Assembly (NCBI GenBank): GCA_964106915.2
Contig: OZ066915.1
DNA from: Podarcis gaigeae
Lineage: Eukaryota
DNA length: 64,000 bases
Strand: one strand, 5' to 3'
Part shown: positions 54,701 through 60,700 of the stretch, in pieces
Position numbering within the stretch: the first letter of the stretch is position 1
Layout: every line of letters starts with the position of its first letter
Position numbers: made by a program

Positions 54701-57700
54701 TGGGTCCATTTCTGTATGTGGGACTATATCTGGGGTTTCATACCCAGATATTAATGAGTCCAGGTATACAATTTATAACCTATGATGTTCCCTTCTAGAG
54801 GAGTGAGATTTATTTTTAATACTTTAATGATTAACAAAAAAAGTTTCATTGTTATTTTGGCTTTTCACAGGAGAAATCCTAGCACTTTGAGAGTGTTGTC
54901 CAAAGCTTAATGGCTGGCCTTCCATTTTCAGCAAAAACCTAAACTCCTGGTTATGGTTTTAGATAAGCCATAAGGTCAGGTCTTTCTATTCATTTGCATG
55001 AGAATTAATGCCTATAGAAGTGACCTTTGCCTCTCAGTTCATCAGAGGTCTTGGTAGTTGTAACTGTGTTTAGGGGAGAGAAGTCAAACAGGTGAATAGT
55101 GAAGTGGCCTGGATAGGCACTTGAAGGACTCTCTATCCTCTATCCCATAGGCTGTGAACATGATTGGATGAGGTAGGTCAGGAGCAGCCGCTGTGTTCCC
55201 CTCCAGATGTTCTGACCACCCTGCGTCATTGGCAATGCTGTCTGTGGTTGATGAGTTGCAGTCCATAACATCTAGAGGGACCAGGTTGGCTACCCTCGAG
55301 GTAGGGGTGATGTCTCTGCTAGAAAAGCAACTGAGAAGAAACTTGGACCATGCTCTTAACTTGCCATTCATGGGGCACAACGATAGAGAGAGTCTAACTC
55401 TGTGCATTCCTGCATGAGACTGGTAGTTTTAAATCTGTTTCATTCTGGCTTTAGGCCAGATTTGGGCCCAGAGACTTCTCTGCTTGTAGTGGACAATCTC
55501 AGCTGTTGCTACTATACCTGCTGATGCCATTTGACAGTAGCATCCTTCTGAATCATATTGCGGGGTTGAGGTGATTCTTCTTCCTTTCTGACTGGTATAA
55601 GAGGGTATTATTAACAGCTGTTCAGTCTATTTCCCCACCATTCTTGTTTCTGTTTTGGGGAGTGGAGATCCACTTGTGAATCAGCATCTAAAAGCTCTTG
55701 TGGTTAGATAAGGTGGAATAGACTTTAAGCAGAAGGCAGACAAGACTGAAGATGCAGTGCTTCCTTCCTTTCATACTCACTTAGAAGATCAGATACCTAA
55801 CCTAGAAATGTCCCTAGTGGCCATGGGTGCTTTTTTCCCTTACACTCAGTATTAGCTGCTGCAACTCTTATTGGAAGGTAAGACCTTCCTGGTGCTGGGG
55901 CGGGGGGGGGGTCATCACTCATACTTGAATTATCTTAAGAATATGATTGTATAATATGCTCTGTGTGAACATGCCTGGAAGCTTAGCTTATGCAAAACTT
56001 TACTTGTATGATGAGGTATGAGACACTACCTGCATATTTAAAAATTCCACTGGTTACATGCTTGCTTTTTAAGAACAATTCATGGTGGTTATTTATGAAG
56101 CCCTGCATGGCTAAGTCACAGGTATCTCAATAAACACATGCCATATTAAAGTATTCCACGTGTTTGGATCTTAAGGAGAGTTTCCTACTCTGTATATTTC
56201 TTTTTCCAAAGAGAGGGAGGCATTTAGTGGAGGCGTTCGTATTGAGAAATTTTGTTCTTTCATAGCAATATTAAAAATAGAACATTGGGGGTTGGAGTTT
56301 CTAAGTTTACTCTCAAGCTGAGTTGCTCTAGCCCAGGGGTCTGCAACCTTTAAGACAAAAAGAGCCACTTGGACCCGTTTCCGAAGAAAAAACAACAACT
56401 GGGAGCCGCAAAACCATTGCGACATTTAAAACAAATATAACACTGCATACATTGTTTCTTAGCCCAATGTTATCCTCGTCATTATAAAAATAACTTTTTT
56501 GACACTTTTTAATTATTTTTTGTTTGACCCCTCAGAATTACTCCTCCTCATAGAAATAAACGTTATATTAACAAGTTACCTTTTTTTGAGTGTGTGTTCT
56601 TCACTCCCCTTCAAAACAGTAGCTGCAAATTGCAAAGCAATAGCAGCAAATCAGCCAGCAACAAAGACATGCTATATACCGTATTTTTCGCTCCATAGGA
56701 CGCACTTTTCCCCTCCAAAAATGAAGGGGAAATCTGTGTGCGTCCTATGGTGCGAATGCAGGCTTTCGCTGAAGCCTGGAGAGCGAGAGGCATCGGTGCG
56801 CACCGACCCCTCTCGCTCTCCAGGCTTCAGGAAGCTATCCGCAAGCCTTGCAAGCCCGGCGGGAGTTCCCACAGGCTCACAAGGCTTGCGGGCAGCAGCC
56901 TGCAGCTCCAGCGAGTGTCCGCAAGCCTTGCGCGCCTGGCGGGAGCTCCCGCCAGGCGCGCGAGGCTTGGGGCGGCAGCCTGTTGCCCGAAGCACAGGGA
57001 GCCCTCCGGAGGGCTCCCCGTGCTTCAGGCGAGTGTCTGCAAGCCTTGCGCGCCCGGCAGGAGCTCCCGTCGGGCGCGCAAGGCTTGGGGCGGCAGCCTG
57101 TTGCCCGAAGCACAGGGAGCCCTCCGGAGGGCTCCCCGTGCTTCGGGCGAGTGTCTGCAAGCCTTGCGCGCCCGGCAGGAGCTCCCGTCGGGCGCGCGAG
57201 GCTTGGGGCGGCAGCCTGCCGCCCGAAGCACGCGGAGCCCTCCGGAGGGCTCCCCGTGCTTCGGGCGAGTGTCTGCAAGCCTTGCGCACCTGGCAGGAGC
57301 TCCCGTCGGGCGCGCGAGGCTTGGGGCGGCAGCCTGCCGCCCGAAGCACAGGGAGCCCTCCGGAGGGCTCCCCGTGCTTCGGGCGAGTGTCTGCAAGCCT
57401 TGCGCGCCCGGCAGGAGCTCCCGTCGGGCGCGCGAGGCTTGGGGCGGCAGCCTGTTGCCCAAAGCACAGGGAGCCCTCCGGAGGGCTCCCCGTGCTTCGG
57501 GCGAGTGTCTGCAAGCCTTGCGCGCCCGGCTGGAGCTCCCGTCGGGCGCGCGAGGCTTGGGGCGGCAGCCTGCCGCCCGAAGCACGGGGAGCCCTCCAGA
57601 GGGCTCCCCGTGCTTCGGGCGAGTGTCTGCAAGCCTTGCGCGCCCGGCAGGAGCTCCCGTCGGGCGCGCGAGGCTTGGGGCGGCAGCCTGCCGCCCGAAG

Positions 57701-60700
57701 CACAGGGAGCCCTCCGGAGGGCTCCCCGTGCTTCGGGCGAGTGTCTGCAAGCCTTGCGCGCCTGGCAGGAGCTCCCGTCGGGCGCGCGAGGCTTGGGGCG
57801 GCAGCCTGTTGCCCGAAGCACAGGGAGCCCTCCGGAGGGCTCCCCGTGCTTCGGGCGAGTGTCTGCAAGCCTTGCGGCCCGGCAGGAGCTCCCGTCGGGT
57901 GCGCGAGGCTTGGGGCGGCAGCCTGCCGCCCGAAGCACGCGGAGCCCTCCGGAGGGCTCCCCATGCTTCGGGCGAGTGTCTGCAAGCCTTGCGCGCCCGG
58001 CAGGAGCTCCCGTCGGGCGCGCGAGGCTTGGGGCGGCAGCCTGTTGCCCGAAGCACAGGGAGCCCTCCGGAGGGCTCCCCGTGCTTCGGGCGAGTGTCTG
58101 CAAGCCTTGCGCGCCCGGCAGGAGCTCCCGTCGGGCGCGCGAGGCTTGGGGCGGCAGCCTGTTGCCCGAAGCACAGGGAGCCCTCCGGAGGGCTCCCCGT
58201 GCTTCGGGCGAGTGTCTGCAAGCCTTGCGCGCCCGGCAGGAGCTCCCGTCGGGTGCGCGAGGCTTGGGGCGGCAGCCTGCCGCCCGAAGCACGCGGAGCC
58301 CTCCGGAGGGCTCCCCGTGCTTCGGGCGAGTGTCTGCAAGCCTTGCGCGCCTGGCAGGAGCTCCCGTCGGGCGCGCGAGGCTTGGGGCGGCAGCCTGCTG
58401 CCCGAAGCACAGGGAGCCCTCCGGAGGGCTCCCCGTGCTTCGGGCGAGTGTCTGCAAGCCTTGCGCGCCTGGCAGGAGCTCCCGTCGGGCGCGCGAGGCT
58501 TGGGGCGGCACCCTGCCGCCCGAAGCACAGGGAGCCCTCCGGAGGGCTCCCCGTGCTTCGGGCGAGTGTCTGCAAGCCTTGCGCGCCCGGCAGGAGCTCC
58601 CGTCGGGCGCGCGAGGCTTGGGGCGGGAACAAAGGAAAATGCGCCTCCTCCCCTCGCCTCCACCCCGGAGCCGCGGCAAAGGCGTTAAAGAGCCGCATGC
58701 GGCTCCGGAGCCGCAGGTTGCCGACCCCTGCTCTAGCCCTTCATTCTCTCTGCTGATACTTGTGCACACAGAAAAGAGAAAAATATTTGCACATGGATTA
58801 ACATTTTCTAGAACTTATTGCCATTTGTAGGGCAGGGAGAAAACAACAGGATTAGGCAGAGATTTGAATTAACGTACAGTCATTTTGGATTCTGGTTTAT
58901 GAGGTGAATTCATAGGTTTAATTTGCTGCCATGCAGTTTCCACAATGAGTTGCATTTGGAATGAGTTGCAGTTAAAGTTCTTTTGGGGAGAGAAACAGTC
59001 AGACTTCTGATTAACTGAGGCAACCCTAGTTAAAACTAAGGGTGAGTGCCCAAAACAAAATCCCTTATACTTTATAGCAGCCTCCCTCAACCTTGGGTCC
59101 CCAGATGTTGTTGGACTACAACTCCCATCATTCCTAGCTAGCAGGACCAGTGATCAGGAATGATGGTAGTTGTAGTTGAGGGTTGAGAGAGGCTGCATTA
59201 TAGGCATTAGAGTATGACTTGGGACCTTGGGGTTCATTACTACGATTACTACTTCTAATGTTTTTCAAAGTTTTAATACATACATGTTCTACATATTTTC
59301 TTCCATCCATTCTTGTTGAATCCATATGAGCATCTTTCTGTCCTCAGTTACTGTAGAGCAGAGCAAATCCTTCTTTAAGGATTTTTCAATGCAGAACTGA
59401 GATTGGCTTTGCTTAAATTGTACGAGTAATAGCAGCTTCCTACTTTAGGGTTTGGTTGCTTACACATCACTGTGTATAAATCCCTTCCCCTCATTAGCTA
59501 GCTTGTTCAACATCACTGAACAAGGTGGTTCAGTGGATTAAATGTTGGACACCGGAAGCCCTTCGACAAGTCACTACCTCATGGCCTTCTTTCTCTTCGT
59601 GAATGAATGAGGTATGGAAAGTTCAATTGCAAGTTTAAATAATCAGTTTGCACTCCTGTGGCTGTTTTATAACAACTATATGATCTACTTGTGGAAGCCT
59701 TTTGCTTATCTTTTGTTGTTGATCAGGCAAGGGTCCCTTTTTGGACTCCTGCAGCGCTTGTCCTTAGCAGTTTGCACCAAAGGACTGAGGAAGTAGCTTA
59801 GGGTTGGTTGTTTAGGTTTCCTCTCAGTAACTTTATCTGAGCACTTTCTGGTCCTATCTACTTTCTCATGGATAATCTCCTTTCATTTTGTTGAACTCTT
59901 CCTGTAAAACAGTTTCTGCTGAATAGCACATGAGTAGTGGGCTATTTTCACATCATGCTATGCTTCAAGCTTCCTTCTGTGCATGTAAACCTATAAAGAG
60001 GCTCATCATTTATTCAGCCACAGGTAATTCTCATGCACGCTTAACATACCAAAGAGAAAAGTGTGTGTAAGGAAGGAAGTAGGCTGAGAGGAAAGAGGCA
60101 ACACTCTTCCCTTATTTTCTCTCTTAAATGAATTTGATAACCAAAGCTACAAAATCAGGAAAGGGAGGAGAATATTTGGGCTCCAGTTTGTGGCTGATAA
60201 TGTTCAAGACTGAATTATAAGGAGGAAAGAACTGGTAAAATCAGGCAGTGTAACTTGGTGTCAAGACAGCCGCAGAGTTTTTTCTAAGCACCCATTCTTG
60301 CCAGGGCATGTATGTGTGTCTTTAGTGGGCATGATCTATCAGAGTGATTTAGCCAGAGATGCATCTGCATTTTTGAAAAGGCTGTTTTTGCAGCAGCTAG
60401 CGATGAAGCTTTCTTTTGCACAAATAAGTGTGTTCTTTTCCACCTGCCATACCATTAGTAGAAGAGTATTGGAAGCTTCTTTAAAGGTTCTTGATAGCAG
60501 ATTATCCAAATGCAGTTGATGAATGTTCACTGTCAGGAGCAGGAGATTTGGAGTCTGCATTTCCCAGGGTCTAATCATCTCATAGGGCAGCTGAGTGTGA
60601 CTCCTTCCCCAATAATCTACTTAACTCAGTAGTTTTCCCCTCCTGTTGCCTCACAAGGAGAAAGAGGCTCCTAGGCTGTTTGCATGATAAGTAGCTTCAG

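What the first reader, a model, noticed from the sequence alone, without database searches (positions are those of the whole stretch)
56334..58730. Composite 'cargo-carrying' hAT element: hAT ends, one captured end of a second transposon, and a palindromic minisatellite, flanked by one TSD
Seen: perfect 8-bp TSD CTCTAGCC around near-perfect 15-bp TIRs. Inside, in order, are about 95 bp of family end, about 250 bp of AT-rich sequence, a TA|CCGTATTTTTCG… end of a pogo/Tc2-like element with no partner end, 1.7 kb of tandem palindromes, and about 95 bp of the other family end. The 304-bp sibling at 27672-27975 has the same two ends but an unrelated interior of about 115 bp. Known: an 8-bp nnnTAnnn TSD is typical of Buster/Charlie-type hATs, and a TA target with a CCGTA terminus is typical of pogo/Tc2-like elements. 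Inference: this is a Pack-type or chimeric non-autonomous family whose short ends mobilise variable cargo, and it may be dispersing a GC-rich satellite seed through the lizard genome.
Basis: partly seen in the sequence, partly recalled or inferred. Interest (0 to 1): 0.75.

Follow-up and report, generated by a model that had tools for sequence, protein, structure and literature searches.

The report
Lizard hAT transposon holding repeat-bearing transposon
A short non-coding "jumping gene" of the hAT type in a lizard genome contains half of a second jumping gene whose own hairpin-forming repeats have multiplied to 1.7 kb, an ordinary kind of transposon nesting that has not been shown to move as a unit.

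Summary
A 2,397-bp element (56334-58730) has 15-bp inverted ends (14 of 15 matching) and a perfect 8-bp duplication, CTCTAGCC. It shares only its 100-bp and 93-bp ends with a 304-bp sibling (27672-27975), which has its own duplication, AGCTAGAA.

The interpretation needs two corrections.
- The 118-bp palindromic array (14.6 copies, 96% alike) is not a separate captured item. It grew from the interior of the TA|CCGTA (Tc2-like) element, because diverged proto-units lie between that element's end and the array.
- Related sequence occurs in two Podarcis gene models, neither showing the hAT ends. The Tc2-like element itself is therefore the simpler carrier of the repeats.

A single outer duplication cannot show that the composite moved as a unit. 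Nested insertion plus deletion in place, or template-switch repair in place, leaves the same signature. No eukaryotic genome collection was available, so copy number of the arrangement stayed untested.

hAT elements with shared ends, differing centres and captured transposon fragments are already described in Anolis, and repeat-bearing MITEs elsewhere. Verdict: a new member of a known kind, of low to moderate interest.

The parts
56326..56333 (.). Left copy of the 8-bp target-site duplication CTCTAGCC
   Evidence: identical to 58731-58738
56334..56433 (+). Left hAT family end. It holds the 15-bp TIR (56334-56348) and subterminal GAGCC(G/A)C motifs.
   Evidence: 94-95% identical to sibling 27975-27879.: GAGCCGC occurs 9 times in the window, 7 of them inside the hAT ends.
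56434..56676 (+). Unique AT-rich segment (33% G+C, CpG observed/expected 0.33). It contains a 21-bp, 1.9-copy tandem repeat at 56612-56651.
   Evidence: only a self-hit in the window.: composition.: tandem repeat.
56677..56678 (.). TA dinucleotide abutting the inner element's terminus, the presumed Tc1/mariner-type target
   Evidence: Only the left side can be seen.
56679..56756 (+). Left terminus of a Tc2-like non-autonomous element. It begins CCGTATTTTTCG and carries a subterminal hairpin with 19-nt arms, 56687-56705 and 56738-56756.
   Evidence: arms 95% complementary.: CCGTAT start and TA target match the Tc2-related TcMar-N4/N6_AC families.: weak mir-5470-like match.
56757..56910 (+). Diverged proto-units of the repeat, with palindromes at 56769-56830 and 56824-56906
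   Evidence: 73-83% identical to array units, aligning over about 1.2 units.: this part is shared with Podarcis muralis protein P0002.
56911..58626 (+). Tandem array of 14.6 units of 118 bp, each unit made of two palindromes. It is 75% G+C with CpG observed/expected 0.86 and shows a 3-unit (354-bp) higher-order periodicity.
58627..58637 (+). 11 nt of unassigned A-rich junction sequence between the array and the right hAT end
   Evidence: matches neither the unit nor the sibling
58638..58730 (+). Right hAT family end. It holds the TIR (58716-58730) and GAGCCGC motifs.
   Evidence: 84.5% identical to sibling 27768-27672
58731..58738 (.). Right copy of the target-site duplication CTCTAGCC
27664..27983 (-). 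304-bp sibling hAT MITE (27672-27975) in the opposite orientation, with its own TSD AGCTAGAA on both sides and an unrelated G+C-rich interior of about 113 bp

Best explanation
This is one non-autonomous hAT element of the Buster/Charlie kind, inserted at CTCTAGCC.

Ends (function inferred). Only the two ~95-bp ends are family sequence. They carry the TIR and the repeated GAGCCGC motif. These are probably the sites that a transposase supplied in trans would bind.

Interior (shown from sequence). The interior is foreign and has two components, not three:
- 243 bp of unique AT-rich DNA.
- Joined at a TA, the left part of a Tc2-like MITE.

That MITE natively consists of a terminal hairpin followed by palindromic ~118-bp repeats. 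The repeats were amplified here to 14.6 copies.

Array growth (periodicity shown, mechanism inferred). The array carries a 3-unit periodicity. Slippage or unequal exchange in steps of one and three units, helped by hairpin formation, is the likely mechanism. The MITE's right end is missing, and 11 unassigned nucleotides join the array to the right hAT end.

Origin (inferred). I think the arrangement was most likely made at this locus and has not been shown to move as a unit. Two routes are possible:
- Insertion of the Tc2-like element into a resident hAT copy, followed by an internal deletion (about 0.4).
- Template-switching gap repair after an excision from this site (about 0.25).

Both keep the outer TSD. 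The palindromic repeat family is spread in lacertid genomes by, or with, the Tc2-like element itself.
For: - Structure.
- The array comes from the Tc2-like interior. Positions 56757-56910 align to about 1.2 diverged units, and the first array unit is the most divergent, with 5-13 differences from the others.
- Local stepwise growth. Mean differences between units are 2.6-2.7 at lags of 3 and 6 units, against 4.0-4.8 at other lags.
- The array is young and subject to CpG decay. Units differ by 3.3% on average. Of 14 variable columns, 9 lie in consensus CpGs, which make up 30 of 118 positions.
- The repeat and the Tc2-like interior exist elsewhere without detectable hAT ends.
  - A phmmer search of the 741-aa reading (56463-58685) against 1.84 billion representatives gave 2 hits.
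  - The first is CAI7935525.1 of Podarcis lilfordi, a translated related array. It scores E 5.6e-33 against the minus-strand reading.
  - The second is UniRef100_A0A670HUA6 of Podarcis muralis. Its residues 117-207 match 56682-56963 at 53% identity.
  - The tail of the second hit does not match the hAT ends beyond shuffled controls.
  - A junction query spanning the hAT right end plus array found only the array part.
- No autonomous partner is nearby. 57 of the 64 listed reading frames of at least 90 aa were scanned and showed no transposase.
- Precedent: in Anolis, hAT families share ends and differ in their central region (passages of PMC3014272).
Against: - Nothing here shows that the arrangement is unique to this locus. 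The decisive genome-wide count could not be run.
- One capture of a contiguous genomic fragment (AT-rich flank, TA, and the left part of the Tc2-like element) would explain three things in a single event: the missing sibling-type interior, the one-ended element, and the background-like CpG depletion of the AT-rich segment (0.33 against 0.29 for the window, compared with 0.81-0.95 for the hAT ends).
- The in-place insertion route needs two events, and also needs this copy to have had a different interior from the start.
- Both hAT ends are fully intact, including their subterminal motifs, so the element looks mobilisable.
- Lizard hAT (hobo_AC) families are documented to capture DNA containing transposon fragments and then amplify it.
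- The protein-database searches are a weak test. They see only sequence that a gene predictor happened to translate.
Confidence: 0.6

Rival explanations
1. The interior was captured at another locus, for example by template switching during gap repair. The chimeric element then transposed to this site as a unit, making the CTCTAGCC duplication. It belongs to a family whose short hAT ends mobilise variable cargo and so spread the repeat seed.
For: - Both ends, the TIRs and the TSD are intact around 2.2 kb of foreign DNA.
- The sibling has the same ends but a different centre.
- A single-event capture explains the one-ended Tc2-like element next to flank-like, CpG-depleted AT-rich DNA.
- Anolis hobo_AC families capture filler DNA containing other transposons and amplify it (passages of PMC3014272).
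Against: - The single TSD is equally expected if the structure arose in place.
- Only one copy of the arrangement, of the AT-rich segment and of the CCGTA end exists in the 64-kb window.
- None of the outside matches carries hAT-end sequence, although this is a weak test.
- The repeat has its own, simpler vehicle.
Confidence: 0.25
2. The AT-rich segment is not foreign. It is the native interior of a longer subfamily of this hAT family. The only foreign DNA is then a nested Tc2-like insertion that later lost its right end. This is a sub-case of the in-place route.
For: - Anolis hAT families commonly share ends and differ in their centres.
- The 11 nt left of the right end are A-rich, like the AT-rich segment.
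- Insertion at a TA in AT-rich DNA is the expected Tc1/mariner target (established knowledge, recalled).
Against: - There is no second copy of the AT-rich segment in the window.
- Its CpG depletion resembles background DNA rather than the CpG-rich hAT ends, but the counts are small (2 CpGs).
Confidence: 0.3
3. The array length or the junctions are an assembly artefact: collapse, expansion or mis-joining in a palindromic, 75% G+C repeat.
For: Palindromic G+C-rich arrays are hard to sequence and assemble (general knowledge). The array folds very strongly as a single strand, with z = -20.8.
Against: - There are no N runs in the window.
- Units carry ordered variants with a 3-unit periodicity rather than identical copies.
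- The TSD and both ends are in register.
Confidence: 0.04
4. The array is a functional CpG island, a regulatory element or a coding repeat, rather than passive repeat DNA.
For: - It is 1.7 kb long with 75% G+C and CpG observed/expected 0.86, in a window at 0.29.
- It is open in all six frames.
Against: - The open frames follow from stop-poor G+C-rich composition and a period that is not a multiple of three.
- Pfam matches are all below their cut-offs.
- Variation between units is concentrated at CpGs (9 of 14 variable columns), as expected for methylated, decaying DNA.
- No expression or methylation data were available.
Confidence: 0.03

Closest known systems
Non-autonomous hAT families of Anolis carolinensis, hAT-HT2N/hAT-N4 type (Novick et al. 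2010, PMC3014272; passages read)
   Same: - 8-bp TSD with a central CTAG/TA (NTCTAGAN, NYYTARRN).
- 15-16-bp TIR beginning CAGGGGTC.
- No coding capacity.
[quoted passage not shown]
   Different: - TIR bases 9-15 differ (TGCAACC here, CCCAAAC in the Anolis families).
- The host is a lacertid-like genome.
- No autonomous partner was identified here.
- Whether this family is in Repbase or Dfam could not be checked.
hobo_AC families of Anolis carrying 'filler DNA' (same paper)
   Same: hAT ends enclose extraneous DNA that contains fragments of other transposons. The authors note that amplification of these families also multiplies the fragments they carry.
   Different: - hobo/Ac-type target (NTRNNYAN) and TIR (TAGGC...), so a different hAT branch.
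- There the composites were shown to be multi-copy families. Here that is untested.
Tc2-related MITEs TcMar-N4_AC and TcMar-N6_AC of Anolis (same paper)
   Same: TA target. The terminus begins CCGTAT. They are non-autonomous, with no autonomous partner found in the lizard.
   Different: - Sequence after the first 6-7 bases differs.
- The element here has only one end.
- Its interior is a string of palindromic repeats.
Tandem-repeat-containing MITEs and foldback elements: DTC84 of the clam Donax (PMC3879986, abstract read) and Tetris of Drosophila virilis (PMC4079207, abstract read)
   Same: - A non-autonomous DNA transposon with an internal array of tandem repeats.
- Palindromes inside the repeat units (DTC84).
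- The same repeats also form arrays elsewhere (Tetris here; compare the Podarcis lilfordi array).
   Different: - Different superfamily and host.
- Here the repeat-bearing element sits, truncated, inside a second transposon.
- kb-scale satellite arrays outside transposons were not demonstrated.
Pack-MULEs and other transduplicating elements (recalled; no paper read here)
   Same: TIRs and a TSD around foreign DNA, with short ends sufficient for mobilisation.
   Different: - Their cargo is host gene fragments. Here it is repeat DNA with no coding similarity.
- Different superfamily.
- Mobilisation after capture is not shown here.

Membership tests
hAT superfamily, non-autonomous element (Buster/Charlie kind) | 8-bp target-site duplication | tested here: met
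   8 of 8 identical at both copies: CTCTAGCC and AGCTAGAA
hAT superfamily, non-autonomous element (Buster/Charlie kind) | Buster-type target consensus nnnTAnnn | tested here: met
   TA at positions 4-5 in 2 of 2 TSDs. The consensus is as quoted in PMC3517528 (passages).
hAT superfamily, non-autonomous element (Buster/Charlie kind) | Short TIRs of the family type | tested here: met
   15-bp TIRs, 14 of 15 and 15 of 15 complementary. The first 8 bases, CAGGGGTC, equal those of Anolis hAT-HT2/N4 TIRs.
hAT superfamily, non-autonomous element (Buster/Charlie kind) | An autonomous partner encoding a hAT transposase | not testable with these tools
   None in the window. No transposase domain in 57 of the 64 listed frames of at least 90 aa. 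No lizard genome was available.
Tc1/mariner superfamily, Tc2-like MITE | TA target duplicated on both sides, and a pair of TIRs | tested here: not met
   Only the left TA and the left terminus exist. There is no partner end in the window. At this locus the element is a fragment.
Tc1/mariner superfamily, Tc2-like MITE | Terminus resembling known Tc2-related elements | tested here: inconclusive
   It shares CCGTAT and the TA target with TcMar-N4/N6_AC, but similarity stops after 6-7 bases.
Tc1/mariner superfamily, Tc2-like MITE | Repeated in the genome | tested here: met
   Related interior in the Podarcis muralis model A0A670HUA6: 53% identity over 95 aligned positions, and 48% identity in the phmmer match to query residues 81-186. 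This applies to the interior only; the terminus itself was not seen elsewhere.
Cargo-carrying (Pack-type) transposon family | The same cargo-bearing element at two or more loci with different TSDs | not testable with these tools
   One copy in the window. Protein-database proxies found no junction.
Cargo-carrying (Pack-type) transposon family | Cargo made of host gene fragments (strict Pack-MULE sense; definition recalled) | tested here: not met
   The Pfam scan of the 741-aa reading gave only sub-threshold matches. The cargo is transposon and repeat DNA.
Tandem-repeat-containing MITE / transposon-derived satellite | The array is derived from the element's own sequence | tested here: met
   Proto-units at 56757-56910 are 73-83% identical to array units.
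Tandem-repeat-containing MITE / transposon-derived satellite | The same repeat forms arrays at other loci | tested here: inconclusive
   One related translated array, in Podarcis lilfordi (CAI7935525.1, on a 4,984-bp contig), with 56% identity over 65% of a 236-aa query. Its DNA and flanks could not be seen.

The most novel reading that the evidence does not exclude
A lacertid hAT MITE family behaves as a Pack-like vehicle. It has picked up the repeat-bearing half of a Tc2-like element and is transposing it, seeding CpG-island-like palindromic 118-bp arrays at new sites. One transposon family would thus be spreading another family's satellite seed.
Probability: 0.12. Interest if true: 0.5.

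Novelty: new member of a known kind. Interest (0 to 1): 0.25.

Why it matters
If the arrangement proves multi-copy, it would be a clear vertebrate example of one DNA transposon mobilising another's tandem-repeat seed. That bears on how satellite DNA starts and spreads.

As it stands, the finding has three practical uses:
- It gives a well-resolved anatomy of a nested transposon.
- It shows that palindromic G+C-rich repeats in lacertids are native to a Tc2-like MITE.
- It warns annotators that such arrays are open in all six frames and have already entered two Podarcis protein sets as predicted protein sequence.

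Tried and rejected
- Paper search for the literal termini. No paper holds the 14-letter TIR string. The 12-letter CCGTA string occurs in 2 C. elegans papers, and the 11-letter string in 18 of the 20 papers listed. Judged by titles only, these look like unrelated primer or sequence contexts.
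- Paper search for 'mir-5470': 0 papers.
- Rfam at gathering thresholds over the whole window: 0 matches.
- Rfam at E-value thresholds on the sibling region: 0 matches.
- Rfam at E up to 1 on 56000-59000: 22 matches, all below their gathering scores. Apart from mir-5470, I take them as generic hairpin matches.
- tRNA scan of 55000-60000: 0 genes, so there is no sign of a SINE origin.
- Pfam on 57 of the 64 listed frames of at least 90 aa. I left out the two sibling frames and five of the six array frames. No transposase was found. The only matches were a sub-threshold RVT_1 and sub-threshold matches in the array reading.
- Protein search with the sibling's plus-strand reading, 103 aa, near lengths only: 0 hits. 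Its minus-strand reading and longer proteins were not searched.
- Test of whether the tail of the Podarcis muralis protein continues into a hAT end. Its second tblastn match runs to 58707, but at 29% identity. A direct comparison with shuffles showed nothing: 8 of 200 shuffles scored as high, and only against the sibling. Rejected.
- Microhomology at the two junctions was inspected by eye. No convincing signature was seen.

The prokaryotic genome-contig collection was not scanned, because it cannot test a lizard transposon.

Full report
**1. The observation**

- CTCTAGCC lies at 56326-56333 and again at 58731-58738.
- Between them, the element 56334-58730 (2,397 bp) starts CAGGGGTCTGCAACC. It ends with the reverse complement of CAGGGGTCGGCAACC, so 14 of 15 TIR bases match.
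- The proposed sibling at 27672-27975 lies in the opposite orientation. It has 15 of 15 TIRs and its own 8-bp duplication, AGCTAGAA.
- Allowing up to 3 mismatches, the TIR pattern has 5 matches in the window. Four are these ends. The fifth, at 48880, has 3 mismatches and is what chance gives (1.67 expected).
- The window has no N.

**2. Anatomy**

| Segment | Coordinates | Evidence |
|---|---|---|
| Left hAT end, 94-95% identical to sibling | 56334-56433 | |
| Unique AT-rich DNA, 33% G+C | 56434-56676 | |
| TA | 56677-56678 | |
| Inner element's terminus and hairpin (19-nt arms, 95% complementary) | 56679-56756 | |
| Two imperfect palindromes (proto-units) | 56757-56910 | |
| Array: period 118, 14.6 copies, 96% matches | 56911-58626 | |
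| Unassigned junction sequence, 11 nt | 58627-58637 | |
| Right hAT end, 84.5% identical to sibling | 58638-58730 | |

- The sibling's ~113-bp interior has no similarity to the composite's interior beyond shuffled controls.
- The motif GAGCCGC occurs 9 times in the 64-kb window, and 7 of those are inside the hAT ends. I read it as a subterminal transposase-binding motif. That reading is an inference.
- The AT-rich segment has no other copy in the window.
- The CCGTATTTTTCG terminus has 1 match in the window at up to 3 mismatches, and no partner end.
- Each array unit is two near-perfect palindromes of 27+27 and 33+33 nt. As single-stranded DNA the region folds far better than shuffles, with z = -20.8 and 0 of 100 shuffles as good.

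**3. The array belongs to the inner element**

- Positions 56757-56910 align to about 1.2 diverged repeat units, 73-83% identical to array units. The first array unit is the most divergent, with 5-13 differences from the others.
- The repeat therefore starts directly after the inner element's terminal hairpin and becomes more uniform inward. That is what an array amplified from the element's own interior looks like. The 'cargo' has two components, not three.
- Units differ by 3.3% on average. Units 3 or 6 apart differ less (2.6-2.7 differences) than at other distances (4.0-4.8), so part of the growth was in 354-bp blocks.
- The array is 75% G+C with CpG observed/expected 0.86, against 0.29 for the window. 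Of 14 variable columns, 9 lie in consensus CpGs, which make up 30 of 118 positions. I infer a young array that is decaying by CpG loss, rather than a protected CpG island.

**4. Evidence from elsewhere**

No eukaryotic genome collection was available.

As a proxy I used the fact that the array is open in all six frames and might have been translated by gene predictors.
- The 741-aa reading of 56463-58685 was run against 1.84 billion representative proteins and gave 2 hits.
- The first is CAI7935525.1, 'Hypothetical predicted protein, partial [Podarcis lilfordi]', 152 aa, on a 4,984-bp contig.
  - It is a translated related array.
  - Against the minus-strand reading it scores E 5.6e-33, with 56% identity over 65% of a 236-aa query.
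  - All 29 of its tblastn matches fall inside the array region.
- The second is UniRef100_A0A670HUA6, an Ig-like domain protein model of Podarcis muralis.
  - Its residues 117-207 match 56682-56963 at 53% identity, and nearly perfectly across the first palindrome.
  - The model evidently reads out of an exon into a copy of the same inner element.
- Neither hit shows hAT-end sequence.
  - The tail of the second does not match the hAT ends beyond shuffles.
  - A junction query spanning the hAT right end plus array (P0004) recovered only the first protein, and only over the array part.
  - No hit covers the AT-rich segment.
- The sibling's plus-strand reading found nothing.

These results fit a lacertid origin. 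They show that the inner element and its repeat are multi-locus in Podarcis. As a test of the composite they are weak, because they see only what was predicted as protein.

**5. An RNA-family lead**

The terminal hairpin (56683-56760) matches Rfam mir-5470 at 43.4 bits, E 3.8e-7 in a 3-kb search.
- This is well below the family's gathering score of 98, so it is not a member.
- Other palindromes here reach 20-38 bits against assorted microRNA models, so part of the score is generic.
- From memory only, mir-5470 is an Anolis microRNA. If so, it may derive from a related transposon hairpin.
- A paper search for the name found nothing.

**6. Comparison with the literature**

- Novick et al. 2010 (PMC3014272; passages read) list Anolis non-autonomous hAT families.
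  - Their TIRs are CAGGGGTCCCCAAAC(T) and their TSDs are NTCTAGAN or NYYTARRN.
  - They describe hobo_AC elements that incorporate extraneous 'filler' DNA containing fragments of other transposons, and so multiply them.
  - The same tables give the Tc2-related MITEs TcMar-N4/N6_AC, with TA targets and termini beginning CCGTAT.
- nnnTAnnn is quoted as the Buster consensus in PMC3517528 (passages).
- Tandem repeats inside MITEs, with palindromes in the units, are described for DTC84 (PMC3879986, abstract). Transposon-internal repeats growing into satellite-like arrays are described for Tetris (PMC4079207, abstract).
- Transposon-derived satellites in squamates are so far documented for SINEs (PMC10702118, passages).
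- The supplements of these papers were not consulted. Consensus sequences there, or in Repbase and Dfam, might already include these families.

**7. Mechanism and rivals**

What is shown is a hAT shell whose only family sequence is its two ends. It encloses unique AT-rich DNA and the left part of a Tc2-like element with its amplified native repeats.

What is not shown is when the interior got there. Three histories leave exactly one outer TSD:
- (a) The Tc2-like element inserted at a TA in a resident hAT copy, and a deletion later removed its right end.
- (b) The hAT excised from this site, and gap repair switched templates and copied ectopic DNA. This mechanism is recalled from work on Ac/Ds, not read here.
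- (c) The chimera formed elsewhere and transposed here.

Single-event capture, (b) or (c), is more economical. It also fits the background-like CpG depletion of the AT-rich segment (0.33 against 0.81-0.95 in the hAT ends). Nested insertion with later loss is the commonest kind of transposon nesting, and palindromic arrays are prone to deletion. My estimates are about 0.4 for (a), 0.25 for (b), 0.25 for (c) and 0.1 for other histories.

Either way, the repeat family needs no hAT to spread, because it travels in the Tc2-like element.

**8. Verdict**

This is a new member of a known kind, with interest 0.25.

Noticed in passing
window 56463-58830, both strands: The array is open in all six reading frames, with stop-free stretches of 571-741 aa. 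Two public Podarcis protein records contain translations of this repeat family or of the inner element: CAI7935525.1, and the C-terminal part of A0A670HUA6. They are probably annotation artefacts.
   Followed up: partly
window 56683-56760 (+): The terminal hairpin of the inner element matches Rfam mir-5470 at 43.4 bits, E 3.8e-7. The gathering score is 98, so this is not a member. It may point to a transposon-derived lizard microRNA; the species of mir-5470 is recalled, not checked.
   Followed up: partly
window 56911-58626: The array has a three-unit (354-bp) higher-order periodicity. Units 3 or 6 apart differ by 2.6-2.7 positions, against 4.0-4.8 at other distances.
   Followed up: yes
window 56334-56433, 58638-58730, 27672-27975: GAGCCGC occurs 9 times in the window, 7 of them inside the hAT ends. 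It is a candidate subterminal transposase-binding motif.
   Followed up: partly
window 56911-58626: The array has CpG-island-like composition: 75% G+C and CpG observed/expected 0.86, in a window at 0.29. Its unit variants are concentrated at CpGs, in 9 of 14 variable columns.
   Followed up: partly
window 19015-19518 (+): An open frame of 168 aa has a weak reverse-transcriptase match: RVT_1, E 6.3e-4, 20 bits against a cut-off of 29.6. It is probably a decayed LINE fragment.
   Followed up: no
window 56612-56651: A 21-bp tandem duplication of 1.9 copies lies inside the AT-rich segment.
   Followed up: no
window 56334-56433 and 58638-58730 against 27672-27975: Many differences between the two hAT copies are at CpG sites, and the sibling more often carries the TG or CA form (alignment). 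The right end is far more diverged than the left: 84.5% identity against about 95%.
   Followed up: no
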